DNA of 64,000 nucleotides from a phage: the NCBI GenBank assembly GCA_014687725.1, contig GCA_014687725.1_4094.1. The stretch is one strand, 5' to 3'. The notes under the pieces are model-generated. The model was not told where the DNA came from. It searched no databases and worked only from the letters and a program-made list of their open reading frames with translations. Within the stretch, counting starts at the first letter, position 1. Each line of letters opens with the position of its first letter. This document shows, in pieces, positions 9,297 through 28,691 of this stretch. A program made the position numbers and the translations under genes.

Positions 9297-9752
9297 ATGT
9301 TTAAGAATTTTATGGTTATCGTAGCAGTACTGTTTGGTACATCATGTTTTATTTCCCCAGTACACGCAGAAGAACAACGTCAAACTATTAAAACTATTGG
9401 GACTGGTAAAACTCCCCCTAAACGTACTGCTGACGAATACATGCCTGAAATGCGTGAACGTTATCGTCAGACATACAGGGAAAAACATGCTAATGATAAA
9501 CCCATCAAGAAGCATAAATGGGAAGTTGTTAAATCTCCTTCATTTTGTGCTGGATATGCTAAAGTAAAGATTGAGCAGCACAAAAACCAGTACTATAAAG
9601 ATATGTATTACTTCTATGACTCCAGAATTTCTGACACAGATATGATGGCAGGGAAGGTTGATAAAGAAGAATTTCTACAAGGCTATGATATGATGGACGA
9701 TGACAAAATCATGGAATGCGTTGAAGTGTATGAAAAATACAGAGGCTTCTGA
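9297..9752 (+). CDS. hypothetical secreted protein (151 aa)
   Basis: Signal-peptide-like N-terminus MFKNFMVIVAVLFGTSCFISPVHA; GAGG RBS; track ORF starts TTG 9291. Confidence 0.55.
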   Translation: MFKNFMVIVAVLFGTSCFISPVHAEEQRQTIKTIGTGKTPPKRTADEYMPEMRERYRQTYREKHANDKPIKKHKWEVVKSPSFCAGYAKVKIEQHKNQYYKDMYYFYDSRISDTDMMAGKVDKEEFLQGYDMMDDDKIMECVEVYEKYRGF

Positions 9753-10228
9753 TGTTAACAATAGTGTTGTTGGTAAGTCCATTTGTGTATTTTGTGCTGT
9801 ATAATATTTTTAGTAATGCTAATCATTTTAAATATGCACAAACAATTGCAAAGCATGAAGGTTTTTGGAATTTTTTCCCAGCATTACTATGCTCATATCT
9901 ATACCATGAACGCTATTTCATTTTTCCTGAATATAAAAATTATGGTTATGATTCTAAAGTAAATGGTATAATTGAGTACTGTATAAGAAATTATCTTAAT
10001 AATAATGATAACGTCCAAGTAAGAATAGGAAATGGTAATATATCAAGAATAGTTTTCATACCTGATATACAAGATCCAATATACTTATATCCATATGATT
10101 ATAGTATTAGTGTAGGTTGTTCGATACATGGTAGTAAATCTATGTACGATTACTTTATCTTACCACCAACACAAATTAGATTAATAGAAAAATATTTGAG
10201 GGAAAAGTTTGACAACAAAGATTCTTAG
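9752..10228 (+). CDS. hypothetical membrane protein (158 aa)
   Basis: N-terminal hydrophobic segment; ATG overlaps previous stop (TGATG). Confidence 0.5.
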   Translation: MLTIVLLVSPFVYFVLYNIFSNANHFKYAQTIAKHEGFWNFFPALLCSYLYHERYFIFPEYKNYGYDSKVNGIIEYCIRNYLNNNDNVQVRIGNGNISRIVFIPDIQDPIYLYPYDYSISVGCSIHGSKSMYDYFILPPTQIRLIEKYLREKFDNKDS

Positions 10229-10269
10229 TATTATAATTAACACACCAAGTAACCCAAGGGGGATGGAAA

Positions 10270-10728
10270 ATGGATGTATTAGCTACAAATTTCAAACGTA
10301 ATGTTGAAGAGCGTGAAGGTTATTTTAGTATTAGTGAAGTTGTCGATGACAATTTTAAACAATACATTTTTAATAGTGCAATTAAATTAAAATGCACAAA
10401 AGATTCACCTGATCGTAGCTTTACTAAATGGATTGCGTATTGGGAAGATTCACCAGTTGCAATTGAAATGACTGTGATTACAACAGTACTTGAAACTGGT
10501 TACATCAAAGCCATTATAGTTGATAAGAAAGTCCGTACTCTTGATGAAATTAATCCATATCCAGCCCGAAATTCTAAAGTTTTTGGTGTGTTGGTTGATG
10601 GTAAATTTATGATAGAAAAAGATGCAAAGGAATATGTAATTAATAAACTTCAAACTACATCAGAAAAAAAGGAAGTAGTGGACCAAAACTCTGTTGATGC
10701 AATCAAAAAAGCATGGGGACTAAAGTAA
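10270..10728 (+). CDS. hypothetical protein (152 aa)
   Basis: ORF with G-rich RBS. Confidence 0.55.
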   Translation: MDVLATNFKRNVEEREGYFSISEVVDDNFKQYIFNSAIKLKCTKDSPDRSFTKWIAYWEDSPVAIEMTVITTVLETGYIKAIIVDKKVRTLDEINPYPARNSKVFGVLVDGKFMIEKDAKEYVINKLQTTSEKKEVVDQNSVDAIKKAWGLK

Positions 10729-10729
10729 T

Positions 10730-11152
10730 ATGTTCACACTAAGTAATGCAAAATATCTTTTTCTTATTAGTATTATTGGTTGGGTTATGGCTCCAGTGCT
10801 AAATGCACTGGGGTTTTCCGATGAACATAAACTTGTAAATGTTTCAGGTTTAATTCAGGGTATTTCATGGTATACATTAATTACATTTTCAGTGTGCATC
10901 AATACATTTGCCCGTGATTATCGACGTTTGTTATATCTGAAAGTATTTGGAACTACACGATATAGTTTTGTTTACACTTTCATTTTAGTACCGTGTATGT
11001 TATATGCATTTGTATTTGATTACTATACATATCTATGGGTATGTGGAACTATGTTTGTTATGTTGGAATACATCAGAACTGTTCAAAACTCATATGCCGA
11101 TGAGTTTCATGATCTAGAAGTTAAACGAAAATTAACGGAGCTAAACAAATGA
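10730..11152 (+). CDS. hypothetical membrane protein (140 aa)
   Basis: Multiple hydrophobic segments. Confidence 0.5.
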   Translation: MFTLSNAKYLFLISIIGWVMAPVLNALGFSDEHKLVNVSGLIQGISWYTLITFSVCINTFARDYRRLLYLKVFGTTRYSFVYTFILVPCMLYAFVFDYYTYLWVCGTMFVMLEYIRTVQNSYADEFHDLEVKRKLTELNK

Positions 11153-11574
11153 GAGGCTATAATAAGATTTGTATTTTTGTATTTTTAGTTTGTGCATTCA
11201 ATTCGTTTGGTTACTACTGTACAGAAAATAATATTTCATATGGTTTAAATCCTTTGTGGTTTACAATTTCCAATGTAGCACAAATTGGTATTGCTCTTAT
11301 GTCTGCACTTATGTTCTGTCCAATTGTCACTATGGATACTGATCATGAAAGGCTTGGATTTCTCCGTGATACTGGAGACGAACCTTACAGTAGATTGATT
11401 GTGTTGTATCCATTTATTGTTATTTTAGGTACTAACATCCAACTTGGGTCATTATCTAATAGTGTTACATCAGCAGCTATTGCTATATTTGCATTCACAT
11501 TTTTTATGGTACACAAATCAGTACTTAATTGGTATATCACAAAAATGGCAGAAGAAGGTACTAAAAATACTTGA
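11149..11574 (+). CDS. hypothetical membrane protein (141 aa)
   Basis: Multiple hydrophobic segments; overlapping start. Confidence 0.5.
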   Translation: MRGYNKICIFVFLVCAFNSFGYYCTENNISYGLNPLWFTISNVAQIGIALMSALMFCPIVTMDTDHERLGFLRDTGDEPYSRLIVLYPFIVILGTNIQLGSLSNSVTSAAIAIFAFTFFMVHKSVLNWYITKMAEEGTKNT

Positions 11575-11599
11575 CATAATTTAGTATGTTATATATAAT
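11571..11599 (+). promoter_or_regulatory. sigma70-type promoter TTGACA-N17-TATAAT
   Basis: TTGACA 11571-11576, TATAAT 11594-11599, upstream of ATG 11634. Confidence 0.55.
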
Positions 11600-11633
11600 T
11601 ATTTTGTTAAAAACAAATTAGAGTAAGGAACTT

Positions 11634-11885
11634 ATGAACATCGATAAGGTCAAAGAACTTAGTGCTGCACTAATTAAGAATGAAGAAGTTTGTGAAGAAC
11701 TTCGCAGTACTATCAAAGTTGAGTACGCACGACTCCAAGGTATGCTTCAAGAATCAGAATGGGTAGTAACTAAATCTATCGAAGCAATCTATAAGGATAT
11801 TGAATCCCTTTTCAACAAGAAAAGTAAGATTGAATCTGATTCATATAACAAACGTAAAGAGTTATCTACTGCACTTGGTATCTAA
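11634..11885 (+). CDS. hypothetical protein (83 aa)
   Basis: ORF downstream of promoter, AAGGAA RBS. Confidence 0.5.
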   Translation: MNIDKVKELSAALIKNEEVCEELRSTIKVEYARLQGMLQESEWVVTKSIEAIYKDIESLFNKKSKIESDSYNKRKELSTALGI

Positions 11886-11959
11886 AAGTATTTTACATAA
11901 CAAATAATATGGAGTACAATGTGCTCCTAATTTAATTATCAGCTAAAAAGGAAAACATT

Positions 11960-12220
11960 ATGAAATCTATTCTCGTTGCAGTTAACCTGGTTGCTTCCCC
12001 ATCTTTCAACTTCAAACAAGTTGTTGCTGATAATCTGAAGAAGATCTGTCCAAACGCTGAATTGACTTTCTGTGTATTTGATTCAGAAAAAGTAACTAAA
12101 GTTGATCTAAACTATCTTTTGAACGAAGTACAAAGCGTTTCTGGTGAAAGTAACTTAAAAGTTCTTCATGAGATTGCAGAAGATTATGATGACACTCTAG
12201 TAATTTCGGAGAAATTCTAA
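11960..12220 (+). CDS. hypothetical protein (86 aa)
   Basis: ORF with AAGGAAA RBS. Confidence 0.5.
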   Translation: MKSILVAVNLVASPSFNFKQVVADNLKKICPNAELTFCVFDSEKVTKVDLNYLLNEVQSVSGESNLKVLHEIAEDYDDTLVISEKF

Positions 12221-12225
12221 ATCAA

Positions 12226-12646: not shown

Positions 12647-13144
12647 ATGACAACTGTTTATATTGATAAACGATTAAATTTATTGATTACCGATTCTAGA
12701 GTTACGTCAACTATACCACGAAACTTATTTGGTTTTTTCCCACTAAGACCAAAATATCAATATGGAGTTGTTAATCAAAAAACTTTATATGTACATGACC
12801 GTTTATTCAGTGCTAGTGGGTCAGTAAGTGAAATTGATAAAGTACTGGATTGGTTAATTAATAAAGTACCAGTTATACCTGACAGAAAGTTAAGTTGCCA
12901 TTGTGTGCTTCTTTCTAAAGATTATGTTATTCATATGATTTTAACTAAAGGAAAGTTTATTAAAAAACTTGAATATCTACATGAAGACTACACTTTCTTT
13001 ATGGGAAGTGGTGGAGAATACATGCTAGATGCTGCTATTCATGAAGAACATACAACTTTATATGATAAAGTGTTTAGTACTTTCATGGATGTGCATAACC
13101 ATGATTGCTTCACAGATGATAATATTAATGTATATCGATTTTGA
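12647..13144 (+). CDS. hypothetical protein (165 aa)
   Basis: ORF in cluster. Confidence 0.55.
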   Translation: MTTVYIDKRLNLLITDSRVTSTIPRNLFGFFPLRPKYQYGVVNQKTLYVHDRLFSASGSVSEIDKVLDWLINKVPVIPDRKLSCHCVLLSKDYVIHMILTKGKFIKKLEYLHEDYTFFMGSGGEYMLDAAIHEEHTTLYDKVFSTFMDVHNHDCFTDDNINVYRF

Positions 13145-13165: not shown

Positions 13166-14131
13166 GTGAAAAAGCTTGATTTAAATACAATTGCCGAAGA
13201 AGTTCTGGATGAATGTTTTGCTAATGAAGAAGTCAACACACTAGAAGCCTTAGATTTCGTTGAAGATAAAGATGAAAATGAAGGTAAAGTACAAAGCAGT
13301 TTCAAATATAATATTACACTTAAGCGACCACCAAATGTTTCCAATGAAGATCTAATTCGTGATATTCAAGCTGGTATCAATGTAAAGAAAAACACTGAAC
13401 TGTTAGTTCGTTACAATTATGGACTTATTATTGATGTAGCAAGTAAATGTACTTGTTATATCCCATTTGAAGATAAGATTTCATATGGTGTTGAGGGGTT
13501 CATGAGAGCACTAAAAACCTTTGATCTTAATAAGAATGTGAAGTTCATTACCTATGCTTCTTCTAGTATTTACATGACAGTTTATAACGAAAGTTCTGAC
13601 GCTAACTATATGGTACACTTCCCACGTTATATGAGTGTTCATAAGATCAAAGTAAAAAGATTCTGCCAGGAATATATGCGTAAACATGGTGTTCGCCCAA
13701 CTCCTGAAATAATCTCAGAGGGTACTGGGATTGAGATTCAGCATGTTAATAACTGTTTGTTATTTCAAAGCGAATACACTTCTCTGGATGCACCATTAGA
13801 CGGTGTTACCGATGGTACACTAGGTGACATTATTCATTCACCTGCTTCTGATTTTAACCTCAATGTTGATAGTATTCGTGCACCTTTACGTTATGCTATC
13901 AATGAACTGACTAACGAATTGAGTACTAAAGAACGTGAGATTATCCAGCGTGTTCATGGTCTAGGTGAATATGAACCTGAAACGCTTCGTGAGATTGCTG
14001 ATAATGGTTTTGTTGATGATAATGGAAAATATGTTAAATCCCGTTCATCAATACATCGAAAGTACAGTGAAGCTATGCAAAAGCTTAAGAAGCTAGTACT
14101 TGCAAAAGGGTACGAATACGAAGATTTCTAA
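13166..14131 (+). CDS. sigma-70 family RNA polymerase sigma factor-like protein (321 aa)
   Basis: Region 2-like GVEGFMRALKTFDLNKNVKFITYASSSIYMTV, region 3-like KHGVRPTPEIISEGTGIEIQHV, region 4-like EREIIQRVHGLGEYEPETLREIADNG; GTG start with GGAG RBS. Confidence 0.65.
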   Translation: MKKLDLNTIAEEVLDECFANEEVNTLEALDFVEDKDENEGKVQSSFKYNITLKRPPNVSNEDLIRDIQAGINVKKNTELLVRYNYGLIIDVASKCTCYIPFEDKISYGVEGFMRALKTFDLNKNVKFITYASSSIYMTVYNESSDANYMVHFPRYMSVHKIKVKRFCQEYMRKHGVRPTPEIISEGTGIEIQHVNNCLLFQSEYTSLDAPLDGVTDGTLGDIIHSPASDFNLNVDSIRAPLRYAINELTNELSTKEREIIQRVHGLGEYEPETLREIADNGFVDDNGKYVKSRSSIHRKYSEAMQKLKKLVLAKGYEYEDF

Positions 14132-14139: not shown

Positions 14140-14164
14140 GGTTGGCTTATGCCAACCTTTTTTT
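14140..14164 (+). terminator. rho-independent terminator
   Basis: Hairpin GGTTGGC-TTAT-GCCAACC followed by T7. Confidence 0.75.
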
Positions 14165-14165
14165 A

Positions 14166-14689
14166 TGGGATGAAGTAAAAGTTTGTGATATAATTATCTT
14201 GTACAATTCTGTTGGCATGATATTCATGTACCTGATCCACTCGAAAACGTAGAGGGCAGTTGAGCAGTCCGACAGTGCGAACAGCAAAAGAAACCCGTTA
14301 GATGTGGGCATAGTTTGAACCCCTCACGGCAATGCGGCTGTATAAAGAACCACGTTAGGATAGCTGGTGGTTCCTTGATAGACATATAAGGATAACACCT
14401 TACGAATTATCTAAGGGAGAGTTATCAAATTTTGTACAGGAAAGTTGCGTCCAAAATTTGAGTACTCACATTAAGTATTTGATTGCATAGATACTTAATG
14501 AAGATACACTATGTTTAAAAGTGTAGACCGTCATATGAAACTGAAGTAGAGAGAAACAGGATGACCCGCTTTCGCACTCGTTATGAGTAATCTTCAATGC
14601 AATAGCTCTGATACCATCAGCGTCAAATTTCCCTCCTTGTGGGGGGGAAGAAAAATCCCTTCCTCAAATCCCGTCAATATTAAAAGTCC
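14166..14689. other. ORF-free, relatively GC-rich region; candidate structured noncoding RNA or regulatory region
   Basis: No ORF of 60 aa or more on either strand over about 520 bp despite dense coding elsewhere; internal hairpins such as GAACCAC...GTGGTTC. Confidence 0.3.
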
Positions 14690-14718
14690 TTGACAGTTAT
14701 TAATCATTCGCGTAGAAT
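14690..14718 (+). promoter_or_regulatory. sigma70-type promoter TTGACA-N17-TAGAAT
   Basis: TTGACA 14690-14695, TAGAAT 14713-14718. Confidence 0.5.
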
Positions 14719-14782
14719 ACGTAGTATTAGAAGCGAACAGACATCTCGAAGAGATGGATGATTAACCATTAAGGAATATCCA

Positions 14783-14992
14783 ATGAATTCAGTAATCTTT
14801 TTAGTAGTCGCTTTCTCTGTTAATTCCGGTATACAAATAACCCCAATGAATTCCATGAATCAATGCATAGCAGTACGTGATAGTACATACGAACAAGTAA
14901 ACAAAGATATTTGGATTACAGTTAATAAAGAACAAATGTGGTGTTACAATAGTAATACTAACACAAAGCTTATTGTAGGACAAACTCAATGA
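14783..14992 (+). CDS. hypothetical protein (69 aa), N-terminal hydrophobic
   Basis: ORF with AAGGAA RBS. Confidence 0.45.
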   Translation: MNSVIFLVVAFSVNSGIQITPMNSMNQCIAVRDSTYEQVNKDIWITVNKEQMWCYNSNTNTKLIVGQTQ

Positions 14993-15219: not shown

Positions 15220-16008
15220 ATGAGCACTATCGATGAACTGATTCAACGGAATTCAAAATATTACCAACCATCAGAAATTGTGGATAACATTACTAAATCT
15301 GAGTTTGGACCGAACACACGCAAACTCATTCATGTAATGTCACGTGATGGCTTTAAATGTGATTGTTGTGGTGAATCAAATGTAGTATTCACTTTACACA
15401 AGCACAGTACTAAAGAACGTTATAAATTCAGACCTTATGTACTTAAAGGGAAACGCCTTGTACGCATGACGTTAGACCATAATGTACTGGACTGTCTTCA
15501 GGGCGGTAATGATAAAGAGAACATGACTGCACTGTGTGAAGATTGTAACGCATTACGCCAGCATAAGTTTGCTGAATACAGTGAGTTTAAACACTGGTAT
15601 CATAACGCGGATCGTTCAATCGAGCCTGACGTCAACTACTGCTTCATTGAGTACATTAAGAATGCCAAAGATACATACATTCTTAAATCAATGTCACCTA
15701 TTACCGTGTTTCCTGAGAACCTATTCACTACATTAAAGAATAGTTTTATTGTAGGTGATATTGATGCATTCAAGTATTTTGACAAAGGTGCAAAACATTT
15801 TGAAATTCAATGTCTTAGTACTGCACTATGTGAACTCATTAAAATTTACATAAAAGAGTATTTGGGTATTGACAATGTACGTGTACCAGAGTATACTTTT
15901 TCTATTGAATTCGATTGTGAATCAATCAAAGAGTTTGGAATTCTTTTCAATAAACAAATAGAACTTGCAATTCAACACGAAATCAAGTACTATACTACTA
16001 ACATTTAA
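15220..16008 (+). CDS. HNH-family endonuclease (homing-endonuclease-like), 262 aa
   Basis: Cys pairs CDCCG and CEDCN flanking DHNVLDCLQGGNDKENMTALC (HNH beta-beta-alpha-metal motif). Confidence 0.7.
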   Translation: MSTIDELIQRNSKYYQPSEIVDNITKSEFGPNTRKLIHVMSRDGFKCDCCGESNVVFTLHKHSTKERYKFRPYVLKGKRLVRMTLDHNVLDCLQGGNDKENMTALCEDCNALRQHKFAEYSEFKHWYHNADRSIEPDVNYCFIEYIKNAKDTYILKSMSPITVFPENLFTTLKNSFIVGDIDAFKYFDKGAKHFEIQCLSTALCELIKIYIKEYLGIDNVRVPEYTFSIEFDCESIKEFGILFNKQIELAIQHEIKYYTTNI

Positions 16009-16023: not shown

Positions 16024-16206
16024 ATGCAAATTATCATTCTTATTGTTGGCATCATGCTGGGTGTTTACGGTCACTCCTGGATGAACGAGAAGTTTCCTAA
16101 TACGCGTCCTGAGTATTGCAGTTCTAATGTATTCCAGAATGGTGAGAAACCAAAGGAAAGCATTGGTAAAAAGCTGGATAAAGTACTTGATGTGATCAAT
16201 GAATAA
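16024..16206 (+). CDS. hypothetical small membrane protein (60 aa)
   Basis: N-terminal hydrophobic helix. Confidence 0.4.
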   Translation: MQIIILIVGIMLGVYGHSWMNEKFPNTRPEYCSSNVFQNGEKPKESIGKKLDKVLDVINE

Positions 16207-16984: not shown

Positions 16985-17293
16985 ATGTTTCAAACTAACA
17001 CTCAAGGTTTTGTAATCATCGATTTGAATCAAAACAGCGGTCATTGGATGAAACCTACTGACGCATGTATGCAGTTTGATTTCTTAGGTTACAAAATTAG
17101 TGTAAGTACTGGTGCTTCTGTACTGAGAGGTGGTTGTATCGTTGAACATCTGGTAACTGATCCAGAAGGTCGTGAGTATGAAATCGCAGGTTCAGTACAA
17201 GATGCCATTATGTTTGTATGTCAGCGTGAAATGAATGGTTCGAATTCAAATGCACTGACTCATGCTCTTTCTCAAGAAGTGGAGGTTCGTTAA
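16985..17293 (+). CDS. hypothetical protein (102 aa)
   Basis: GAGG RBS upstream. Confidence 0.55.
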   Translation: MFQTNTQGFVIIDLNQNSGHWMKPTDACMQFDFLGYKISVSTGASVLRGGCIVEHLVTDPEGREYEIAGSVQDAIMFVCQREMNGSNSNALTHALSQEVEVR

Positions 17294-17538
17294 TGAAATA
17301 CATTGTAGCAGTACTCGTCGCATTTCTACTCACTGCATGTGATGCTTCTACCAAAGAACGTACAAGTGATTTTGTTCTACCTGCTGAATTAAAAGAAGCA
17401 GGGTGTAAGATTTATCGTATGCAACAAGATGGTGCTGGTGCGACTTTATACACTGTGTACTGTCCTAATGCAAATACAAGTACTGGATACACTAGCGGTA
17501 AAACACGAATCAACACTTCCGTAATTCATGGAGAATAA
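17293..17538 (+). CDS. putative lipoprotein (81 aa)
   Basis: N-terminus MKYIVAVLVAFLLTAC with lipobox-like LTAC. Confidence 0.55.
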   Translation: MKYIVAVLVAFLLTACDASTKERTSDFVLPAELKEAGCKIYRMQQDGAGATLYTVYCPNANTSTGYTSGKTRINTSVIHGE

Positions 17539-17540
17539 CA

Positions 17541-17909
17541 ATGAGCCTTGATACAACACGTGCAGCAGATTTATTAACTCGTCTGAATGATGAAGAATAT
17601 CTTGCTGAGATAAAGTACAAGCTTGACAAACTTGTTCGAAGTGCTGAAGTAATTGAAGTTGAAGGTCACTTACCGATGGATCAATACCATAGGTTCAAGG
17701 AAGATATGGTTTATTATCCTAATGAAATTTGGATTGAGTGGCAACATTGGACTAACAAAACTCTTCGCATTGAAGGGTATTGTGTGAAGTATGAAAGTTC
17801 ACCTGGTGATGTTACAAAAACTCTATCAATTTGGTGTACAAAAACAAATGAACTCGTTGAGGTGAATTTGAATTATATGAATGGATTCCGTTGGGGTGAT
17901 GTTAAATGA
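17541..17909 (+). CDS. hypothetical protein (122 aa)
   Basis: ORF in cluster. Confidence 0.55.
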   Translation: MSLDTTRAADLLTRLNDEEYLAEIKYKLDKLVRSAEVIEVEGHLPMDQYHRFKEDMVYYPNEIWIEWQHWTNKTLRIEGYCVKYESSPGDVTKTLSIWCTKTNELVEVNLNYMNGFRWGDVK

Positions 17910-18181
17910 TTAAAAAACTCTTGACTGGAATCATTGTGTGCAGTACAATGTTTCTTACAGCATGTAATGATGACGGCAGGTTTAGTGCAAAAGACTTAGT
18001 TCGTCAGGATTGTACATTCACAGGTAAGTCTTTTATTAACGAGTATGAAATATGTACACAATCAGGTCGTATCTGTGGTGGTTGGGAAAAACGTCAGGAG
18101 CGATTGTATGTATATGAATGCCCTGGACATCACAACAAAGTATTAAGCACACACAAACTTGTTTATGATAAGGTTGAATAA
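17906..18181 (+). CDS. putative lipoprotein (91 aa)
   Basis: N-terminus MIKKLLTGIIVCSTMFLTAC with lipobox-like FLTAC. Confidence 0.55.
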   Translation: MIKKLLTGIIVCSTMFLTACNDDGRFSAKDLVRQDCTFTGKSFINEYEICTQSGRICGGWEKRQERLYVYECPGHHNKVLSTHKLVYDKVE

Positions 18182-18396
18182 TGACTACCAATGAAATGAT
18201 GCAGGTTATTTGGGATAAAGGTTGTGATATTAAAATCACTAGTACTGATGTTCGTGTATTCAAAACTGAATATATGGAGTACTTGGACCTTGATACTTAT
18301 AATAATATTGTATCAATTGAACACAAAGGTGCAGTACTGGAAACCATTGACGTAGTACTCAAGAAAGCTACCGACCTATTAGGAGGGGCAGTGTGA
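18181..18396 (+). CDS. hypothetical protein (71 aa)
   Basis: ORF in cluster. Confidence 0.5.
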   Translation: MTTNEMMQVIWDKGCDIKITSTDVRVFKTEYMEYLDLDTYNNIVSIEHKGAVLETIDVVLKKATDLLGGAV

Positions 18397-18549
18397 ATAA
18401 CAAAGAGTGGGAAGATTACCGCAAGAAGTGCAGGGAGTTTGATAAAGAACTTACTGGTACAGTGAATGCAGTAATGTGGGTATCTGTAATTATTGCAGTT
18501 CTTGCGTTGGGTGCTATTATTATTAATAAATTATTCTAAGGCGAATATC

Positions 18550-19948: not shown

Positions 19949-20611
19949 ATGTTAGTTAATCTTAATTTCATCACTTCACCTGACTGGGCATTACGTGGAG
20001 TTTCTTTAAACTTCAAGGAAACTATGTTTGACTACATTGGTGAGTGTACATTGGTAAATGCAACTTTTGATCCAAATCATCCGTTTTGGGCTGAAATTCA
20101 TGATCCAAATGTAAACAACAATACATCTGTTATGACTATTGTCCAGACTAAACATGCAGGTATCCTTGCAGGTTATCGACCTGCACATGCAATTGAACAC
20201 TTCACTGATTACGATGTCGTGGATGAATACCCAATGATCCATGAAGATGGAAGTCTATACACATCTGAAGACTTCCGTGCTATCTTTAATAGTACTGATG
20301 ATATTCTACCAAGTGGACGTCCACGTCCTGAGTCTTATCTTATGCATCCATCTTATGGTGTAGCAGATACGCTTGAACAGATTATGAATAAGTACAAGAA
20401 CCTAATTGAAGGTCCAGAAGAAATTGTCCTGTGCTATCACCCAGTACTGAAGTCTGAACAACCAAAGGATGGTGGATGGCGTTGGCATAAGAATGGTGAG
20501 TATATCGGTACTAAACGAAGTAAAGAACGTTTTGAGTACTTGTATGATGAGCCAGATGTTGATGTGGTTTTGTGTTATAATTTTATTAAGGTGAAAAAGA
20601 AATGTATCTAG
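19949..20611 (+). CDS. hypothetical protein (220 aa)
   Basis: GAGG RBS before ATG 19949; track ORF begins at TTG 19931. Confidence 0.55.
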   Translation: MLVNLNFITSPDWALRGVSLNFKETMFDYIGECTLVNATFDPNHPFWAEIHDPNVNNNTSVMTIVQTKHAGILAGYRPAHAIEHFTDYDVVDEYPMIHEDGSLYTSEDFRAIFNSTDDILPSGRPRPESYLMHPSYGVADTLEQIMNKYKNLIEGPEEIVLCYHPVLKSEQPKDGGWRWHKNGEYIGTKRSKERFEYLYDEPDVDVVLCYNFIKVKKKCI

Positions 20612-20844
20612 TACTAAGTTTTGTTGTTGCACTATTGTTTATGTTCTATCCTACACTAGTGGCATTAGCCACTAGACGAACGATGGTAGATCTCACTACT
20701 GTATTCTTGCTAAACGTGGCATTAGTACTGGTTTCTATTATCATTCCAGTGAGCTTTACAGTTATTGATATTATTTCGGTATTACTCTTCGTGTTAAGTT
20801 ATCTTATGCTTATTGAAGAAACAAATGTTGACAAACGTTCGTAG
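20602..20844 (+). CDS. hypothetical membrane protein (80 aa)
   Basis: Two hydrophobic helices. Confidence 0.45.
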   Translation: MYLVLSFVVALLFMFYPTLVALATRRTMVDLTTVFLLNVALVLVSIIIPVSFTVIDIISVLLFVLSYLMLIEETNVDKRS

Positions 20845-20855
20845 TACTGTATAAT
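20828..20855 (+). promoter_or_regulatory. sigma70-type promoter TTGACA-N16-TATAAT with AGTACTG in spacer
   Basis: TTGACA 20828-20833, TATAAT 20850-20855. Confidence 0.6.
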
Positions 20856-20902
20856 GGTTCCTGTAGTCTGAAACTTAACACTTAAACTTGAGGTAAAAAA
20901 AT

Positions 20903-21229
20903 ATGCTATCAGTACTAATTTCAATTCCGTCTTTAATTCTGATTTGGCTTCTGGTTTACGAATGCTTCATTACTGATGATAATGATAAAAAAGAGTTCTC
21001 TGAGTTGTTTATGCTTGATTCACCGATTGTGCGTATTTTCTATGCAGTCGTTGTGGTTTCAGTAATTGTATGGGTTTTGAGTTTTATCTTCCCACTCGGT
21101 GCAGTAGTTAAAACTTTGGATTTAGTTGAGAACTTTGTTGCAATTATGTGGCTAATCAAAGCACTATTTGCAGGAAATGTTAAAATTTGGATTGATATTA
21201 TCAAATTCAAGTTCACGAATAAGATGTAA
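20903..21229 (+). CDS. hypothetical membrane protein (108 aa)
   Basis: Hydrophobic helices; downstream of promoter. Confidence 0.5.
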   Translation: MLSVLISIPSLILIWLLVYECFITDDNDKKEFSELFMLDSPIVRIFYAVVVVSVIVWVLSFIFPLGAVVKTLDLVENFVAIMWLIKALFAGNVKIWIDIIKFKFTNKM

Positions 21230-21307
21230 CAGTGAAAATATCTCTATAGTATTAAATACTTCTGTACATATATATAGTACAGAAGTATTTCTCGTTAGAG
21301 GTTTGTT

Positions 21308-21667
21308 ATGAAGAGTTATATAAAATTAATAGCACTTGTGTGTGCATTATTTTCATGTTTTAGTTATGGTGCAGCAGCAGAAACATATTGTCGTAGTACT
21401 AAGGGAACGTGGCATGTATTGACTAACGACCCTAGAAATGGTAAAAATATAGTTGTTGATGGTGTGATTTATCGTTTTAAAGTAGAAAGTATTATCGGTA
21501 ATAAAAAAATCTCGACTTATAGAGATGATTCTGGTACATTAGCAAACGTAATATTAATTGTAGACCCAAGAACTGGTAATGGTGATATCTATATAGTAAT
21601 TTACTTGGACTCATCGGTACGCCGTGACCTAGATATAGATAAATTGAACTTACACTGTGAAATATAG
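21308..21667 (+). CDS. hypothetical secreted protein (119 aa)
   Basis: Signal-peptide-like MKSYIKLIALVCALFSCFSYGAAAE. Confidence 0.55.
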   Translation: MKSYIKLIALVCALFSCFSYGAAAETYCRSTKGTWHVLTNDPRNGKNIVVDGVIYRFKVESIIGNKKISTYRDDSGTLANVILIVDPRTGNGDIYIVIYLDSSVRRDLDIDKLNLHCEI

Positions 21668-21677
21668 GACTTAAAAA

Positions 21678-22055
21678 ATGGTAAACACTATTTTACTTTT
21701 GTTGTTGAATATTCCAATTATTCTGTCTTTTTTAATTTCTATTTTTATGGCAGGATATTGTTTAGTTGCAGTAATTCATTTCATTTTAACAAACAAATAT
21801 GTCCTAATTTCTAAGCTTGATTCTATTTTTGCTTGCGATTCGATTGCTTATAACTTGTGGTTAATTTGTTCTTGCATTATGGGAGTAACTTTCCTTCTGT
21901 ATGTATTTGATGTCCTTGACCAAAAGTTCGTATACATCAGTACTGGATTGGCTCTTTATCCTGCTACGTGGTACTTGATTTACGTTGGTGATATATGGTA
22001 TAGTACTTATAAAGAATATCAGTACAAGAAATCACTTAACGTTGGAGGAAAATAA
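21678..22055 (+). CDS. hypothetical membrane protein (125 aa)
   Basis: Several hydrophobic helices. Confidence 0.5.
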   Translation: MVNTILLLLLNIPIILSFLISIFMAGYCLVAVIHFILTNKYVLISKLDSIFACDSIAYNLWLICSCIMGVTFLLYVFDVLDQKFVYISTGLALYPATWYLIYVGDIWYSTYKEYQYKKSLNVGGK

Positions 22056-22057
22056 TC

Positions 22058-22408
22058 ATGAAAATTATTTTATTTTTTGTATGTATGTTAATGTGTGGAT
22101 TGTCATATGCTGAACCATTGGAAGGTTTAGTTTGTACCGATGGTAATATTAAACATATCTATCAAGGTGATAGTGACGATCGAGATATTGTATATATTGA
22201 TGGACAATCATATACGTTTGTTAAAGAGCATACAGTAGGCGACATTAGCTTCACTGAGTTTTCTAACGACACAGACCCTAACTTCTTAGCGTTTATTGAA
22301 GTAGATGTATATGAAGATAGTAATGGTACACAATATGCTAAATTAGTTATGATGCGTCGTGGTGCTAAAGAAACTAGTTTTGGTGGCTTGTGTAAATATA
22401 AGGATTGA
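22058..22408 (+). CDS. hypothetical secreted protein (116 aa)
   Basis: Signal-peptide-like MKIILFFVCMLMCGLSYAEP; AGGAGG-like RBS. Confidence 0.55.
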   Translation: MKIILFFVCMLMCGLSYAEPLEGLVCTDGNIKHIYQGDSDDRDIVYIDGQSYTFVKEHTVGDISFTEFSNDTDPNFLAFIEVDVYEDSNGTQYAKLVMMRRGAKETSFGGLCKYKD

Positions 22409-22412
22409 TATT

Positions 22413-22604
22413 ATGTTGATTTATCAAGGTGATAATATTCGTGTTATGCAGCATCCCTACTTACAAATCTTTGATGTGCAGCAGTATATGGAAGGTGATG
22501 ACCCAAGAACCTATGGTCGTAAGTATGATTACTTCACTGTAAAGCAGTGTAACAATATTAACGAAGTACGACAATTAGTTCAAGAACTTCAAAACAAAGG
22601 TTGA
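22413..22604 (+). CDS. hypothetical protein (63 aa)
   Basis: AAGGA RBS before internal ATG; IYQGD motif shared with previous ORF. Confidence 0.4.
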   Translation: MLIYQGDNIRVMQHPYLQIFDVQQYMEGDDPRTYGRKYDYFTVKQCNNINEVRQLVQELQNKG

Positions 22605-22630
22605 CTTCGGTCAGCCTTTTTTGTTATAAT
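22599..22630 (+). terminator. terminator hairpin GGTTGAC-TTCG-GTCAGCC plus T-run; TTGACT in stem with TATAAT 18 nt downstream (terminator-promoter cassette)
   Basis: Hairpin 22599-22616, T-run 22617-22622, TATAAT 22625-22630; overlaps stop codon at 22602-22604. Confidence 0.7.
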
Positions 22631-24074: not shown

Positions 24075-24194
24075 ATGAAATATATAGTACTTGTACTGAT
24101 ATTATTCAGTACTGTTGTAAGTGCTAAACAAAAAGAATATGTTAAATGTATAAATTATGAAGAGAAATATGTTGAAACATATAAAAAAGTATAA
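24075..24194 (+). CDS. hypothetical small secreted peptide (39 aa)
   Basis: MKYIVLVLILFSTVVSA signal-like N-terminus; below 60-aa track cutoff. Confidence 0.35.
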   Translation: MKYIVLVLILFSTVVSAKQKEYVKCINYEEKYVETYKKV

Positions 24195-25447: not shown

Positions 25448-25831
25448 ATGGTTGATAAATGGAATAAGAAAGATCCATCACATGATGTTGATATTTCTGG
25501 TCTAGACAATGCACATAAGCACAAGTATCTAGATTCACTAGGTCTTCTAAAACCAGACCAAAGTCTTGCACATGATCGTCCATCCCGTGAAAAAGCATTT
25601 AGCCTAGAATCACTAGGTCATGAGCTTAATCGTGTGTTTGAGGATCACCCAATCTATGTACGTGATATTATCGAGAAACTTAAAGTAACTCCTAAAGAGC
25701 ACTTTAAAGCAACAGTACACTCTGCATTCCGTGCATTGCATGATTCTCTCAAGAAAACTCACAATCTTCGTAAAATTCATGATGAAATCGTGAATGCAAT
25801 CGAAAGTGAAAAACATAAGTTCAAGAAGTAA
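25448..25831 (+). CDS. hypothetical protein (127 aa), shares Y-x-x-SLGLL motif with 26077 ORF
   Basis: HKYLDSLGLLKPDQ motif; AGGAG RBS. Confidence 0.55.
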   Translation: MVDKWNKKDPSHDVDISGLDNAHKHKYLDSLGLLKPDQSLAHDRPSREKAFSLESLGHELNRVFEDHPIYVRDIIEKLKVTPKEHFKATVHSAFRALHDSLKKTHNLRKIHDEIVNAIESEKHKFKK

Positions 25832-25838
25832 TAAAAAG

Positions 25839-25871: not shown

Positions 25872-25900
25872 AACTTCTCAATATAACTGAGGTATCATAT

Positions 25901-26014
25901 ATGCAAGGTTTGAAATTTGTAGTTGCTGCACTCATCGCCGCAGTACTGGTTGGTGGTGTATTCTATGTAGTGGATCAAAAAGTAAATCCACCTGCACAAG
26001 AACAATCTAAGTAA
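25901..26014 (+). CDS. hypothetical small membrane protein (37 aa)
   Basis: MQGLKFVVAALIAAVLVGGVFYVV hydrophobic; between two terminators; below track cutoff. Confidence 0.35.
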   Translation: MQGLKFVVAALIAAVLVGGVFYVVDQKVNPPAQEQSK

Positions 26015-26022
26015 CAAAATAA

Positions 26023-26053
26023 GGTTGACTTCGGTCAGCCTTTTCTTTATACT
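26023..26053 (+). terminator. terminator-promoter cassette (GGTTGAC-TTCG-GTCAGCC)
   Basis: Hairpin 26023-26040, T-run, TATACT 26048-26053. Confidence 0.65.
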
Positions 26054-26076
26054 ATAAATATAGACATAGAGAAAAA

Positions 26077-27630
26077 ATGAAATCTATGGAGAGAAATCAA
26101 ATGCCAAGTAATTTTACTGATAAAAATGGTGGTAACATGGCTGGTCACTCTGATAAATGGAGTGAACGCAACCGCCGTCCAAATAGTTATCAAGCAGGTC
26201 AAGGTTCACGTGGGTCACGTAATCAAGGAACTGGTCTAGCTGGTAAAGCAAACGCAGAAGCAGGTGAAGTTAAGAGTACTGAGAACATGACTGAGCTAGA
26301 AAAGCTACGTTATGTTAATTCATTGGGACTTCTTAATGCTACACAAAAACAACGCCTAGCTGATATGGAACGTGAAGAAAAAGAAAAGTCTTCTCCTGCG
26401 AAAGAAGAACCAAAACAAGAAGCACCAAAGGCGGTTAACCCTGTCAAAGAATTGTCTGATAAGTTAGGTAAGATTTTTGCTAATAAACCACAACTTATCC
26501 AAGGTATTGTGAAAGAATTGCAATCTGTACCTAAAGAAGAATTAAAAGTCAAAGCACAAGCTGTACTTGATGCAATGAGTGGAAATACCAGTACTGAACC
26601 AACTGAAGTATTCAGTACTATAATGCGTGCACTTGAAGGTAAACCACAGGGTGACGAGACTGCACAAGAGGAAGTAAGTCTTGAAAGCGTACTTAAAACA
26701 TTTGATAGTATTGGTAAAGAAGACCGTGCTAATGCTCAACAAGTTAAGAATGTACTAGCTAAGTTAGAAAACCGTCTGGAAGGTAAAGACGATAAGATTA
26801 AATTAGTATCTGATGCAGTTAACGATGCACTTAAATCTTACGTACAAGGTGAAAAGAGTCGTTTTGTAACTGCAATGGATGCTGCATTCAATACTATGAA
26901 AAAGTATGAAGCTGATCATGGTGAGAAGGTTACACGAGATGGTTATCTGATGCGTGATGATGAAGAAGGTGCAGTTGACCAGAAAGATGCTGAAACATCT
27001 CATGATGATTTACCTGATACTGTTGATATGGATGGTTACATTCATCGTCCAGAAATGGGAGAGTTTGGTTCTGACAAAGAAGGATTTGAACATGCAATGG
27101 CAGTGTACAAAGCTCTCGTGGACAATCCAGATTATGCCAACCGATTTGTAGATGAGTTTGATAGTGCATGGAACAACTACAAAGACAAAGGTTATGACTT
27201 CCCTGCTGAGGCAGCATTCTTTGAACTTGGTAAACTATTAGCTAAACATGGAATTGATGTAGGTTCTAAAGATGGTACTGATACTGATGGCATGGAAGCA
27301 GAATTGGCTAAAGATCGTGAAATGAACGACAACTCCATTCATGAACTCCAAAAGCTAATGATGTGGATATCCGATATTGGTAAAAAAGCTGGTGCTGATA
27401 ATAAGAGTATCAACAAAAACATTAGTTGGATTAAAAGTAATGTTGGTAAAAATGCTCGTAAACTACAAAAAGCATGGACTGATTTAGTAAATGGTGCTGA
27501 TGATGTTGACATTGAATCACCTGAAGCATACGAATATGCATTAACTACTCTTGATAATTCCTTTAAAGATTACGATAACGGTAACGTAACTCATTGGGAA
27601 AAGGACATCATGAGCAAATACGGTAAATGA
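26077..27630 (+). CDS. hypothetical protein (517 aa), hydrophilic, acidic/lysine-rich; paralogous N-region to 25448 ORF
   Basis: LRYVNSLGLLNATQKQ motif; long ORF flanked by terminators. Confidence 0.65.
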   Translation: MKSMERNQMPSNFTDKNGGNMAGHSDKWSERNRRPNSYQAGQGSRGSRNQGTGLAGKANAEAGEVKSTENMTELEKLRYVNSLGLLNATQKQRLADMEREEKEKSSPAKEEPKQEAPKAVNPVKELSDKLGKIFANKPQLIQGIVKELQSVPKEELKVKAQAVLDAMSGNTSTEPTEVFSTIMRALEGKPQGDETAQEEVSLESVLKTFDSIGKEDRANAQQVKNVLAKLENRLEGKDDKIKLVSDAVNDALKSYVQGEKSRFVTAMDAAFNTMKKYEADHGEKVTRDGYLMRDDEEGAVDQKDAETSHDDLPDTVDMDGYIHRPEMGEFGSDKEGFEHAMAVYKALVDNPDYANRFVDEFDSAWNNYKDKGYDFPAEAAFFELGKLLAKHGIDVGSKDGTDTDGMEAELAKDREMNDNSIHELQKLMMWISDIGKKAGADNKSINKNISWIKSNVGKNARKLQKAWTDLVNGADDVDIESPEAYEYALTTLDNSFKDYDNGNVTHWEKDIMSKYGK

Positions 27631-27640
27631 TAAAACTAAA

Positions 27641-27665
27641 GGTTGACTTCGGTCAGCCTTTTTTT
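27641..27665 (+). terminator. rho-independent terminator (GGTTGAC-TTCG-GTCAGCC plus T7)
   Basis: Hairpin 27641-27658, T-run 27659-27665. Confidence 0.75.
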
Positions 27666-27700
27666 GTAAATACAAAAGAGGAATTAAGAAGAGGATTGCA

Positions 27701-27952
27701 ATGAAAAAATATATTATATTTGGAATTGTATTATTTTCCAGTACTGCTTATGGTGCAGATTATCATTGCTCCGTAGCAAGGCAGGATTTCAGAAATGGGG
27801 AGTTCTATACTACCTCATACACAAAAGGAATAATACACGACACCGACAGAACTATTGGATTTAATGCGTTTGACAACAAAGATTCATATACTTCAGGTAT
27901 ACTATCTGAGCGTAAGACTGATGTTATGGGAATAGAAAAAGAGTTCCGGTGA
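27701..27952 (+). CDS. hypothetical secreted protein (83 aa)
   Basis: Signal-like MKKYIIFGIVLFSSTAYGA. Confidence 0.5.
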   Translation: MKKYIIFGIVLFSSTAYGADYHCSVARQDFRNGEFYTTSYTKGIIHDTDRTIGFNAFDNKDSYTSGILSERKTDVMGIEKEFR

Positions 27953-27962
27953 TTCAGTAGCA

Positions 27963-28262
27963 ATGTGCAATGACATTGAAAGTACTAAAACAATTTATTA
28001 TAATAATGAACGTAACTATCGTTTTCATAATTTAACCACAAATAAAAGTTTACTATTTTACAATTGTAAAGAAGTAATACTCCCATCAGACAATAGCTGT
28101 ACTCCAACTAATCAACCCCCAGCACAATGTAATACTCCCTCTGAACCTGATAAAAATAAAAAAGACAAAAAACCTTTAAAAGATAAAAAGAAAGATAAAA
28201 AACCTAATCCGTTTAAAAATAATAAACCAGCACAACCCGATATGACGTGTAAAATAAAATAA
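27963..28262 (+). CDS. hypothetical protein (99 aa), Cys-containing with Lys/Asp-rich tail
   Basis: ORF in cluster. Confidence 0.4.
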   Translation: MCNDIESTKTIYYNNERNYRFHNLTTNKSLLFYNCKEVILPSDNSCTPTNQPPAQCNTPSEPDKNKKDKKPLKDKKKDKKPNPFKNNKPAQPDMTCKIK

Positions 28263-28271
28263 GGATATATA

Positions 28272-28691
28272 ATGAAAAAGATTTTTTTAAGTATTATTTT
28301 AGTACTTTTTAGTTTTAATGTATATGCAGCAGATGCTAAACAGGTTGCAAATACAGTAAAAGATGTTATAGTAGATAATGCTCCTACATTAGAGGAAATT
28401 GGGGTAAAAACTTGTGATATAGTAATATATAATTTAGTTAATGATGAACGAGTTATGTTGAATACGTATGAACAAGTAGTCCCATTGGTTGAATCTGGTG
28501 ATGCTTTTAGCTTTACATATAAAGTTAAATTAACAGGAGGGGTTGAAGTTAATCTTGACATTGATACCGCTTCAGTACTAAAAGATAAACTAGGATATGT
28601 GTTCAATCGTATTCGTGAAGAAGGTCATCTTAAGTATGTTTATGAAAGTAAAATACTAAAACGTGCAATAGTTATAGAAAACTGTAAATGA
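28272..28691 (+). CDS. hypothetical secreted protein (139 aa)
   Basis: Signal-like MKKIFLSIILVLFSFNVYAAD. Confidence 0.55.
   Translation: MKKIFLSIILVLFSFNVYAADAKQVANTVKDVIVDNAPTLEEIGVKTCDIVIYNLVNDERVMLNTYEQVVPLVESGDAFSFTYKVKLTGGVEVNLDIDTASVLKDKLGYVFNRIREEGHLKYVYESKILKRAIVIENCK

What the first reader, a model, noticed from the sequence alone, without database searches (positions are those of the whole stretch)
9297..28691. Many small exported proteins and lipoproteins in the accessory region
At least nine small ORFs begin with signal-peptide-like sequences (9297, 21308, 22058, 24075, 27701, 28272) or lipobox-like LTAC motifs (17293, 17906), interleaved with small membrane proteins (10730, 11149, 20602, 20903, 21678). 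Export to the envelope fits functions such as superinfection exclusion, receptor masking or lysis modulation.
Basis: inference. Interest (0 to 1): 0.45.

Follow-up and report, generated by a model that had tools for sequence, protein, structure and literature searches.

The report
Early envelope-targeted proteins of a jumbo coliphage
A 19-kb early-gene block of an E. coli jumbo phage (genus Asteriusvirus) really does hold an unusual cluster of eight small secreted proteins and lipoproteins plus about ten small membrane proteins, probably used to remodel the infected cell's envelope, though none has a known function.

Summary
The window is an Asteriusvirus jumbo myovirus, 99% identical to phage vB_Eco_slurp01 and related to PBECO4, 121Q and phAPEC6.

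**Observation: holds.**
- All eight listed ORFs have a Shine-Dalgarno site.
- Six have a charged n-region, a hydrophobic core and a -3/-1 cleavage site. Two have an L-T-A-C lipobox.
- 24075 is cut to 39 aa here by a 1-nt loss in an A-run (73 aa in relatives).
- The five named membrane proteins are confirmed, and five more exist.

**Clustering: real.**
- 8 of 47 genes in the region are secreted or lipidated, against 0 of 75 elsewhere in the window.
- The count is 2 of 196 across 95 kb more of the slurp01 genome.
- Shuffled proteins give about 1% false positives.

**Supporting evidence.**
- Signals and cysteine pairs persist in orthologues of 41-69% identity.
- Perfect sigma-70 promoters drive the region.
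- Envelope proteins diverge faster than their neighbours.
- None is in the published virion proteome.

**Specifics.**
- 17293 belongs to a large uncharacterised phage lipoprotein family, found in 572 phage records. Its lipobox is invariant and Asp at +2 is common.
- 21308 and 22058 are paralogous disulfide-stapled 8-stranded beta-barrels. They match PliC/MliC lysozyme inhibitors in fold only, on a model of modest confidence.

**Function.** Superinfection exclusion or envelope protection is plausible but unproven.

**Verdict.** New members of a known kind; moderate interest.

The parts
9297..9752 (+). 151-aa secreted protein (SPI-type signal, VHA|EE; 2 Cys in the mature part)
   Evidence: found only in Asteriusvirus and close kin; phrog_36332, function unknown
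9752..10228 (+). 158-aa protein with an N-terminal TM anchor; a divergence hot spot (42% aa identity to WPEC5)
10730..11152 (+). 140-aa membrane protein (2 TM)
   Evidence: phrog_15839 'membrane protein'
11149..11574 (+). 141-aa membrane protein (about 4 TM)
14783..14992 (+). 69-aa protein with a hydrophobic N-terminus but no positive n-region, and 2 Cys; ambiguous signal or anchor
   Evidence: the start differs between annotations
16024..16206 (+). 60-aa protein with an N-terminal TM segment
16863..16891 (+). Perfect sigma-70 consensus promoter upstream of the unit that contains both lipoprotein genes
17293..17538 (+). 81-aa lipoprotein (LTAC|D, Asp at +2, one conserved disulfide pair); member of a large phage lipoprotein family (phrog_902)
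17906..18181 (+). 91-aa lipoprotein (LTAC|N, 4 further Cys); predicted to be sorted to the outer membrane
18393..18539 (+). 48-aa protein with a C-terminal TM segment
   Evidence: annotated in 121Q and G17
20602..20844 (+). 80-aa membrane protein (2 TM)
20828..20855 (+). Perfect sigma-70 promoter (TTGACA-16-TATAAT with TG) of the 20903-22604 operon
20903..21229 (+). 108-aa membrane protein (3 TM); first gene of the divergent operon
21308..21667 (+). 119-aa secreted protein, paralogue of 22058; Cys near the N- and C-termini of the mature part
21678..22055 (+). 125-aa membrane protein (3 TM); 43% aa identity to WPEC5
22058..22408 (+). 116-aa secreted protein, predicted to be an 8-stranded beta-barrel with an N-C disulfide
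22596..22619 (+). Terminator hairpin (conserved GGTTGACTTCGGTCAGCC element) that closes the operon
24075..24194 (+). Signal-peptide ORF truncated to 39 aa by a 1-nt deletion in an A-run; the intact 73-aa form in relatives has 2 Cys
25901..26014 (+). 37-aa single-TM peptide flanked by terminator hairpins
27701..27952 (+). 83-aa secreted protein (AYG|AD; a single Cys)
27963..28262 (+). 99-aa Cys-, Lys- and Pro-rich protein without a signal peptide, in the same operon; 24-nt in-frame deletion compared with relatives
28272..28691 (+). 139-aa secreted protein (VYA|AD, 2 Cys); at least 99% identical in 21 records but about 41% in 12 others

Best explanation
The region is part of the early gene block of an Asteriusvirus jumbo phage, transcribed by the host RNA polymerase. 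It encodes a battery of mostly unrelated small proteins that the host sends to the envelope.

Composition and routing:
- Six proteins are exported by Sec and cut by signal peptidase I.
- Two are lipoproteins processed by Lgt, LspA and Lnt.
- 17293 has Asp at +2, so it probably stays on the periplasmic face of the inner membrane.
- 17906 probably goes to the outer membrane.
- About ten small proteins are integral membrane proteins.
- In the periplasm the exported proteins are presumably stabilised by DsbA-made disulfides.

Proposed function (inferred): soon after infection they condition the envelope. The most likely effects are blocking entry of further phage, by masking or inhibiting envelope components, and inhibiting peptidoglycan hydrolases.

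Two genes stand out within this picture:
- The paralogous beta-barrels 21308 and 22058 are co-transcribed with two membrane proteins. They are the best candidates for periplasmic inhibitor proteins.
- The 17293 family is shared by many unrelated virulent phages. It probably targets a conserved envelope component rather than a phage-specific receptor.

Shown here: the targeting signals, their conservation, the clustering, the promoter context and the divergence pattern. Inferred: the localisation details and every function.
For: Identity and annotation:
- The window is 99.1% identical to slurp01, and almost every gene in the block is annotated as hypothetical.

Signals:
- The signal and lipobox features are present, and each start codon has an RBS.
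- The signals and cysteine pairs are retained in orthologues of 41-69% identity.
- The lipobox is present in 202 of 214 homologues of 17293, and most of the rest carry variants. Two further Cys occur in 179 of those 202, and +2 is Asp in 34% and Glu in 19%.
- 7 of 8 mature parts have an even, non-zero Cys count, against 12 of 40 small cytoplasmic neighbours (p = 0.004).

Clustering:
- 8/47 against 0/75 in the window, and 2/196 in the adjacent slurp01 sequence.

Expression:
- The window has ten perfect TTGACA-N16-18-TATAAT sites, all on the + strand, where 0.14 are expected. Five lie in the region and define transcription units.
- Conserved terminator hairpins bound the operons.

Evolution:
- Envelope proteins are more diverged from subclade phage WPEC5. 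Median aa identity is 73% against 88% (p = 0.025).
- The nucleotide-identity troughs fall exactly over the 20903-22058 operon and over 27963-28691.

Structure:
- The 22058 model is an 8-stranded barrel.
- The independent BFVD model agrees, TM 0.83.

Not virion parts:
- In the phAPEC6 virion proteome, only the homologues of 25448 and 26101 come from this block (PMC7247149 Table 1; 121Q annotation).

Precedents:
- T5 Llp is an early lipoprotein that blocks FhuA (PMC9586334; bioRxiv 10.64898/2026.03.26.714494).
- T4 Spackle is an early periplasmic inhibitor of the gp5 tail lysozyme (PMC7677548).
Against: - No significant sequence match ties any of these proteins to a characterised exclusion, lysis or inhibitor protein (Pfam, NCBIfam, PHROG and PDB).
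- The weak Cor (E 0.008) and TrbK (E 0.018) hits cover only the signal and lipobox region.
- The barrel model has modest confidence (pLDDT 67), and 8-stranded barrels are a common fold.
- The PliC/MliC sequence motifs were not found.
- The 17293-family model is poor (pLDDT 63) and has no structural match.
- None of the genes sits beside a receptor-binding protein gene, unlike llp and cor.
- Early timing is inferred from promoter sequence only. I found no transcriptome for this genus.
- The signal prediction uses my own rules, not SignalP or LipoP.
- The +2 residue varies across the 17293 family (Asn in Felixounavirus), so the localisation may not be uniform.
Confidence: 0.45

Rival explanations
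1. Lysis timing or lysis-inhibition components. On this reading the secreted and membrane proteins act as antiholins, holin regulators or spanin-like factors that tune when the cell lyses.
For: - T4 RI is a small early protein exported to the periplasm (established knowledge; review PMC6832632).
- o-spanins are small lipoproteins, and the region holds many small TM proteins.
- Jumbo phages have long latent periods.
Against: - No endolysin or holin gene is in or near the block.
- The endolysin of Rak2-like phages is encoded far away, 121Q gp532 (PMC5259590).
- The lipoprotein genes have no adjacent or embedded i-spanin. Their neighbours 17541 and 18181 have no TM segment.
- The genes sit behind sigma-70 consensus promoters, typical of early rather than late lysis genes.
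Confidence: 0.15
2. Counter-defence or competition factors. On this reading they are periplasmic 'immunity-like' inhibitors and membrane proteins. They would neutralise host or competitor envelope weapons (lysozymes, T6SS peptidoglycan-targeting effectors, colicins, membrane-associated abortive-infection systems) rather than other phages.
For: - The 22058 barrel resembles PliC/MliC inhibitors and a T6SS immunity protein in fold.
- The allele-like divergence fits an arms race with variable targets.
Against: - The similarity is in fold only, from a model of modest confidence, and there is no sequence support.
- A lytic infection lasting minutes to hours gains little from immunity to animal lysozyme.
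- No defence-related families were detected.
Confidence: 0.15
3. The N-terminal hydrophobic stretches are by-products of AT-rich composition (rich in Ile, Phe, Leu, Lys), or uncleaved anchors of no common purpose. On this reading there is no real 'secretome cluster'.
For: - 21% of shuffled proteins from this window pass a lenient TM threshold.
- TM proteins are not specific to the stated coordinates.
Against: - Only about 1% of shuffles pass the SP/lipobox rule, against 17% of the real genes in the region.
- The signals, cleavage motifs and Cys pairs are conserved in diverged orthologues and across more than 200 family members.
- The Cys counts are mostly even.
Confidence: 0.05
4. Host-fitness 'moron' functions, such as Bor/Lom-like serum resistance or adhesion factors.
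For: Lambda Bor is a lipoprotein and Lom is an outer-membrane protein (established knowledge).
Against: - The phage is strictly virulent, with no lysogeny genes reported for the group (PMC5259590).
- The genes are genus-core and behind early promoters.
- There is no similarity to Bor or Lom.
Confidence: 0.03

Closest known systems
T5 Llp (early lipoprotein that blocks the FhuA receptor)
   Same: - Small lipoprotein of about 60 mature residues with a disulfide pair.
- Made early by a virulent phage.
- Acts from the periplasmic side of the envelope (PMC9586334; bioRxiv 10.64898/2026.03.26.714494).
   Different: - No sequence or structural similarity to 17293 or 17906.
- llp lies next to the receptor-binding protein gene, and these genes do not.
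- 17293 has Asp at +2, which predicts the inner membrane, whereas Llp is in the outer membrane.
Cor (T1/phi80/N15 superinfection-exclusion lipoprotein, phrog_1119)
   Same: Small phage lipoprotein. It gave a weak PHROG hit for 17293 (E 0.008).
   Different: The hit covers residues 1-48 only (signal peptide, lipobox and a few more) and is not significant. The real family is phrog_902, whose function is unknown.
T4 Spackle and Imm
   Same: Early gene products sent to the periplasm and inner membrane that stop secondary infection. Spackle inhibits the tail lysozyme (PMC7677548).
   Different: - Spackle is helical, whereas 22058 and 21308 are predicted beta-barrels.
- There is no sequence similarity.
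- No target is known here.
PliC/MliC periplasmic or lipid-anchored lysozyme inhibitors
   Same: - 8-stranded beta-barrel of about 100 aa.
- Signal peptide.
- Cys near the N- and C-termini of the mature part (a feature of MliC recalled from my own knowledge, not tested here).
   Different: - No Pfam MliC hit and no PDB sequence hit.
- 4-5% identity.
- The SxSGAxY-type motif was not seen.
- The query model has pLDDT 67.
RP4 TrbK entry-exclusion lipoprotein
   Same: Small lipoprotein that blocks DNA entry. Its inner-membrane location is recalled from my own knowledge. It gave a weak NCBIfam hit (E 0.018).
   Different: The hit is below the curated cut-off (15 against 23 bits) and is confined to the signal region.
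Rz1-type o-spanins
   Same: Small phage lipoproteins.
   Different: - No i-spanin partner.
- No lysis-cassette context.
- Not proline-rich.
- Early promoters.

Membership tests
Sec/SPase I signal peptides | Positively charged n-region, hydrophobic h-region of 8-18 residues, small residues at -3 and -1, polar mature start, no later TM segment | tested here: met
   Met for 9297, 21308, 22058, 24075, 27701 and 28272 and conserved in orthologues. The test used rules of my own.
Sec/SPase I signal peptides | Positive call by a trained predictor (SignalP), or experimental cleavage | not testable with these tools
   No such predictor or experiment is available here.
Bacterial lipoproteins (SPase II) | Lipobox [LVI][ASTVI][GAS]C at the end of an N-terminal signal, with Cys at positions 15-35 | tested here: met
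   17293 has LTAC at Cys16 and 17906 has LTAC at Cys20. The lipobox is present in 202 of 214 homologues of 17293.
Bacterial lipoproteins (SPase II) | Lol-avoidance signal (Asp at +2) for inner-membrane retention | tested here: met
   - 17293 reads C-D-A, and Asp is the commonest +2 residue in the family (68 of 202).
- 17906 reads C-N-D, so the feature is not met there and the outer membrane is predicted.
- The rule comes from E. coli literature (my own knowledge).
Cor superinfection-exclusion family (phrog_1119) | Significant full-length profile match | tested here: not met
   E 0.0079 over residues 1-48 only, against E 1.5e-13 to phrog_902.
T5 Llp | Sequence or fold similarity to the solved Llp structure | tested here: not met
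MliC/PliC lysozyme inhibitors | 8-stranded beta-barrel fold | tested here: inconclusive
MliC/PliC lysozyme inhibitors | Sequence-profile membership (Pfam MliC) and the conserved active-site-plugging loop motif | tested here: not met
   No Pfam hit at E up to 1 and no PDB sequence hit.
MliC/PliC lysozyme inhibitors | Inhibition of lysozyme | not testable with these tools
   This needs a biochemical assay.
Two-component spanins (o-spanin) | Lipoprotein gene embedded in, overlapping or adjacent to an i-spanin gene (N-terminal TM plus coiled coil) within a lysis cassette | tested here: not met
   Neighbours 16985, 17541 and 18181 have no TM segment, and there are no lysis genes in the block.
phrog_902 small phage lipoprotein family (function unknown) | Full-length profile match with the conserved LP.EL..C..Y...VV.CPN..T...GK core and three Cys | tested here: met
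   - E 1.5e-13 to phrog_902.
- 572 phage records by tblastn.
- 1119 cluster representatives at E up to 1e-3.
- Alignments.

The most novel reading that the evidence does not exclude
Two new classes of phage envelope effectors may be hiding here.

1. The phrog_902 lipoprotein family. It has more than 1000 sequence clusters, spread over Asteriusvirus, Eneladusvirus, Vequintavirinae, Felixounavirus and T5-like Vibrio phages. It could be a widespread, mostly inner-membrane-anchored exclusion factor acting on a conserved envelope component or on DNA entry. That would be independent of receptor identity.

2. The hypervariable operon 20903-22408, with two membrane proteins and two disulfide-stapled beta-barrels. 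It could be a Spackle-like system built on a PliC/MliC-type fold that inhibits the tail lysozyme of superinfecting relatives.
Probability: 0.2. Interest if true: 0.65.

Novelty: new member of a known kind. Interest (0 to 1): 0.38.

Why it matters
- More than 80% of jumbo-phage genes have no known function, and the Asteriusvirus papers I checked do not mention signal peptides or lipoproteins.
- This analysis gives a short, testable list of envelope-directed early proteins with defined operons.
- It identifies one lipoprotein family shared by many therapeutic-type virulent phages (Felix O1-like, rV5-like, T5-like, jumbo).
- If these proteins are exclusion factors or envelope inhibitors, they bear on phage-cocktail interference and on phage-phage competition.
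- They could also serve as tools that target conserved envelope machinery.

Tried and rejected
Family and sequence searches:
- Pfam, NCBIfam and PHROG scans of all candidates gave only genus-specific families of unknown function.
- The Cor and TrbK hits are artefacts of the signal and lipobox region.
- The homologue table carries a precomputed Pfam label, PF16225. It could not be reproduced with the local Pfam copy, so I did not use it.
- PDB sequence searches with the family profiles gave nothing.

Structure:
- The afdb50 fold library was unavailable.

Ideas rejected:
- The spanin idea, for lack of an i-spanin partner.
- 21308 as a lipoprotein (LFSC). The Cys is Arg in WPEC5.
- 20903 and 21678 as paralogues. 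This is not supported.

Ideas left unsupported:
- A fusion of 27701 and 27963 by a +1 frameshift. Their 1 and 5 Cys would sum to 6, but there is no slippery site, and a stop in the +1 frame limits the overlap to about 20 nt.

Literature and RNA:
- Five Asteriusvirus or Rak2-like papers were checked. Four never mention signal peptides or lipoproteins. The CBB paper only counts them: 4 lipoproteins and 50 membrane proteins among its ORFs.
- Rfam found nothing in the region beyond a sub-threshold MicX hit.


Full report
**Identity of the window**

The region is 99.1% identical over 20 kb to Escherichia phage vB_Eco_slurp01. It is 97-99% identical to PBECO4, 121Q, phAPEC6, G17 and other members of the genus Asteriusvirus. 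These are jumbo myoviruses of about 350 kb, related to Rak2.

Public annotations call almost every gene in 9297-28691 'hypothetical'. The landmarks are:
- a sigma factor at 13166-14131;
- an HNH endonuclease at 15220-16008;
- two virion proteins at 25448-25831 and 26101-27630;
- a protein kinase at 28761-29402.

The block is syntenic in at least 32 phage records, so it is core to the genus and not variably present.

**Observation**

I mapped the slurp01 gene calls onto the window. I then applied a rule-based test. It requires net positive charge before an uncharged hydrophobic core of 8-18 residues. It then requires either a lipobox, or small residues at -3 and -1 with a polar mature start and no later TM segment.

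Each has a Shine-Dalgarno-like motif 5-10 nt upstream.
- Signal peptidase I type: 9297 (VHA|EE), 21308 (SYG|AA), 22058 (SYA|EP), 24075 (VSA|KQ), 27701 (AYG|AD), 28272 (VYA|AD).
- Lipoproteins: 17293 (LTAC|D) and 17906 (LTAC|N).

Corrections to the finding:
- It says 'at least nine' but lists eight.
- 24075 is only 39 aa here, because an A7 run in all relatives is A6 in this window. The intact protein has 73 aa.
- The internal 'LFSC' of 21308 is not a lipobox, because that Cys is Arg in a diverged orthologue.

The five named membrane proteins are confirmed. 9752, 16024, 18393, 25901 and perhaps 14783 add to them.

**Is it more than chance?**

- The rule flags about 1% of shuffled proteins, so about 0.5 hits would be expected among 47 genes. 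Eight were found.
- Elsewhere in the window, 0 of 75 genes pass (Fisher p = 3e-4).
- I built a codon-model gene caller that reproduces 68 of 71 annotated starts. With it I scanned 114 kb of slurp01. Eight of the ten hits are these same genes, which is 8/47 against 2/196 (p = 4e-5).
- Small TM proteins are enriched over a wider stretch of about 40 kb. That stretch includes the paralogous 3-TM arrays at 29748-30783 and 36803-39583.
- Published baselines for related large phages are about 9-10% membrane or lipoproteins (CBB: PMC5259590; P7_Pc: PMC9769974).

**Independent support for export**

- In phage WPEC5, from the other Asteriusvirus subclade, the orthologues are only 41-69% identical. They keep the n-region, hydrophobic core, cleavage-type residues and every mature cysteine. 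The 22058 family does the same.
- 7 of 8 mature parts have an even, non-zero number of cysteines (2, 2, 4, 2, 2, 2, 2). Only 12 of 40 small cytoplasmic neighbours do (p = 0.004). This fits periplasmic disulfides.

**Transcription context**

- The window has ten perfect TTGACA-N16-18-TATAAT sites, all on the + strand, where 0.14 are expected.
- Five lie in the region: 10209, 11571, 16515, 16863 and 20828. Several carry an extended TG -10 element.
- Eight copies of a terminator hairpin, GGTTGACTTCGGTCAGCC, punctuate the + strand. Its TTGACT can serve as the -35 of a downstream promoter.
- This defines two units:
  - P20828 - 20903 (TM) - 21308 (secreted) - 21678 (TM) - 22058 (secreted) - 22413 - T22596;
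  - T27641 - 27701 (secreted) - 27963 - 28272 (secreted) - T28701.
- Host-type consensus promoters imply early expression. This is an inference, because I found no transcriptome for the genus.

**What the proteins are**

- None has a significant Pfam, NCBIfam or PDB sequence match. PHROG places most in genus-specific families of unknown function.
- *17293.* It belongs to phrog_902 (E 1.5e-13).
  - Homologues occur in 572 phage records: Asteriusvirus, Eneladusvirus, Vequintavirinae, Felixounavirus and T5-like Vibrio phages.
  - A profile search finds 1119 cluster representatives.
  - All named members are phage proteins annotated as hypothetical.
  - The lipobox Cys and two further Cys are essentially invariant. 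The +2 residue is Asp in 34% and Glu in 19%.
  - In E. coli, Asp at +2 is the inner-membrane retention signal (established knowledge).
  - Its genomic neighbours differ between phage groups, so it acts alone.
  - Its AlphaFold model is poor and matches nothing.
- *21308 and 22058.* They are distant paralogues, shown by a cross-PHROG hit, BLASTP E 4e-4 and a shared DG.xYxF..E...G motif.
  - The 22058 model has pLDDT 66.6 and is an 8-stranded barrel.
  - The BFVD model of the slurp01 protein agrees with mine, TM 0.83.
  - This is a resemblance in fold only.
- *9297, 17906, 27701 and 28272.* They are confined to Asteriusvirus and close kin.

**Evolution**

- Against WPEC5, envelope-directed proteins are more diverged than cytoplasmic neighbours. 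Median aa identity is 73% against 88% (Mann-Whitney p = 0.025).
- Nucleotide identity drops to 50-70% over 9650-10200, over the 20900-22200 operon and over 27950-28700. Flanking genes stay at 85-100%.
- 28272 is bimodal: at least 99% identical in 21 records and about 41% in 12. This allele-like pattern is typical of interaction or immunity determinants.

**Not virion parts**

In the phAPEC6 virion proteome, only the homologues of 25448 and 26101 come from this block (PMC7247149 Table 1). The 121Q annotation agrees.

**Mechanism**

The best-supported reading is an early envelope-takeover set. Host Sec, SPase I and the lipoprotein pathway deliver these proteins to the periplasm and to both membranes.

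There they most likely block secondary infection or protect the envelope. Precedents are T5 Llp (PMC9586334), T4 Spackle (PMC7677548) and, from established knowledge, T4 Imm.

I put this at about 0.45. Export itself I put at about 0.85.

Rival readings:
- lysis timing (0.15);
- counter-defence or immunity-like inhibitors (0.15);
- compositional artefact (0.05);
- moron-type host-fitness functions (0.03).

**Verdict**

These are new members of a known kind, namely phage-encoded envelope effectors. The two concrete leads are the phrog_902 lipoprotein family and the barrel-plus-membrane-protein operon.

Noticed in passing
window 14140-14780: About 640 nt with no annotated gene, between the sigma-factor terminator and the next promoter. 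It is 98-99% identical to WPEC5 while its flanks are 60-85% identical. It is richer in GC. It has no Rfam hit, and its fold z-score is only -1.5. It may be a conserved non-coding RNA or a regulatory element.
   Followed up: partly
window 22599, 25840, 26023, 27641, 28701, 32902, 34184, 35905 (+ strand): Eight copies of one terminator hairpin, GGTTGACTTCGGTCAGCC (UUCG loop). Its TTGACT also fits the -35 hexamer of a promoter-like site just downstream, so these look like terminator-promoter cassettes.
   Followed up: partly
window 1491, 8363, 10209, 11571, 16515, 16863, 20828, 31429, 59408, 62500: Ten perfect sigma-70 consensus promoters, all on the + strand (0.14 expected). Several share AGTACTGTATAAT, an extended -10 element.
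   Followed up: partly
window 24117-24122: A homopolymer difference (A6 here, A7 in slurp01, 121Q and G17) truncates the 24075 signal-peptide gene to 39 aa. It may be a sequencing error or a real pseudogene.
   Followed up: yes
window 27701-28262: 27701 has a signal peptide and 1 Cys. 27963 has no signal peptide, 5 Cys and a Lys/Asp/Pro-rich tail with a 24-nt indel. The two are 10 nt apart in frames that differ by +1. The odd Cys counts would sum to an even number in a fusion, but I found no slippery site.
   Followed up: partly
window 29748-30783 and 36803-39583: Tandem arrays of paralogous 3-TM proteins of about 112 aa, three copies in the first and seven or eight in the second, just outside the finding.
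   Followed up: partly
window 40268-56100 (- strand): About 14 tandem paralogues of about 380-400 aa that begin MLPFGRM.KYGN and carry RCC1 repeats. phAPEC6 lists 'DNA condensation' virion proteins of about 40 kDa; their correspondence to this array is assumed, not checked.
   Followed up: partly
window 56857-58779: A tandem array of about ten paralogous genes of about 60 aa (MHKEYY.../MNKEHKEFY...) with no family match.
   Followed up: no
window 28761-29402: The T7-like protein kinase gene is absent from the otherwise syntenic WPEC5 locus.
   Followed up: partly
window 12647-13144: A 165-aa protein with a weak match to an HslV-family peptidase PHROG (phrog_1040, E 1e-6). It sits directly upstream of the phage sigma factor, and both are strongly diverged in WPEC5.
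   Followed up: no
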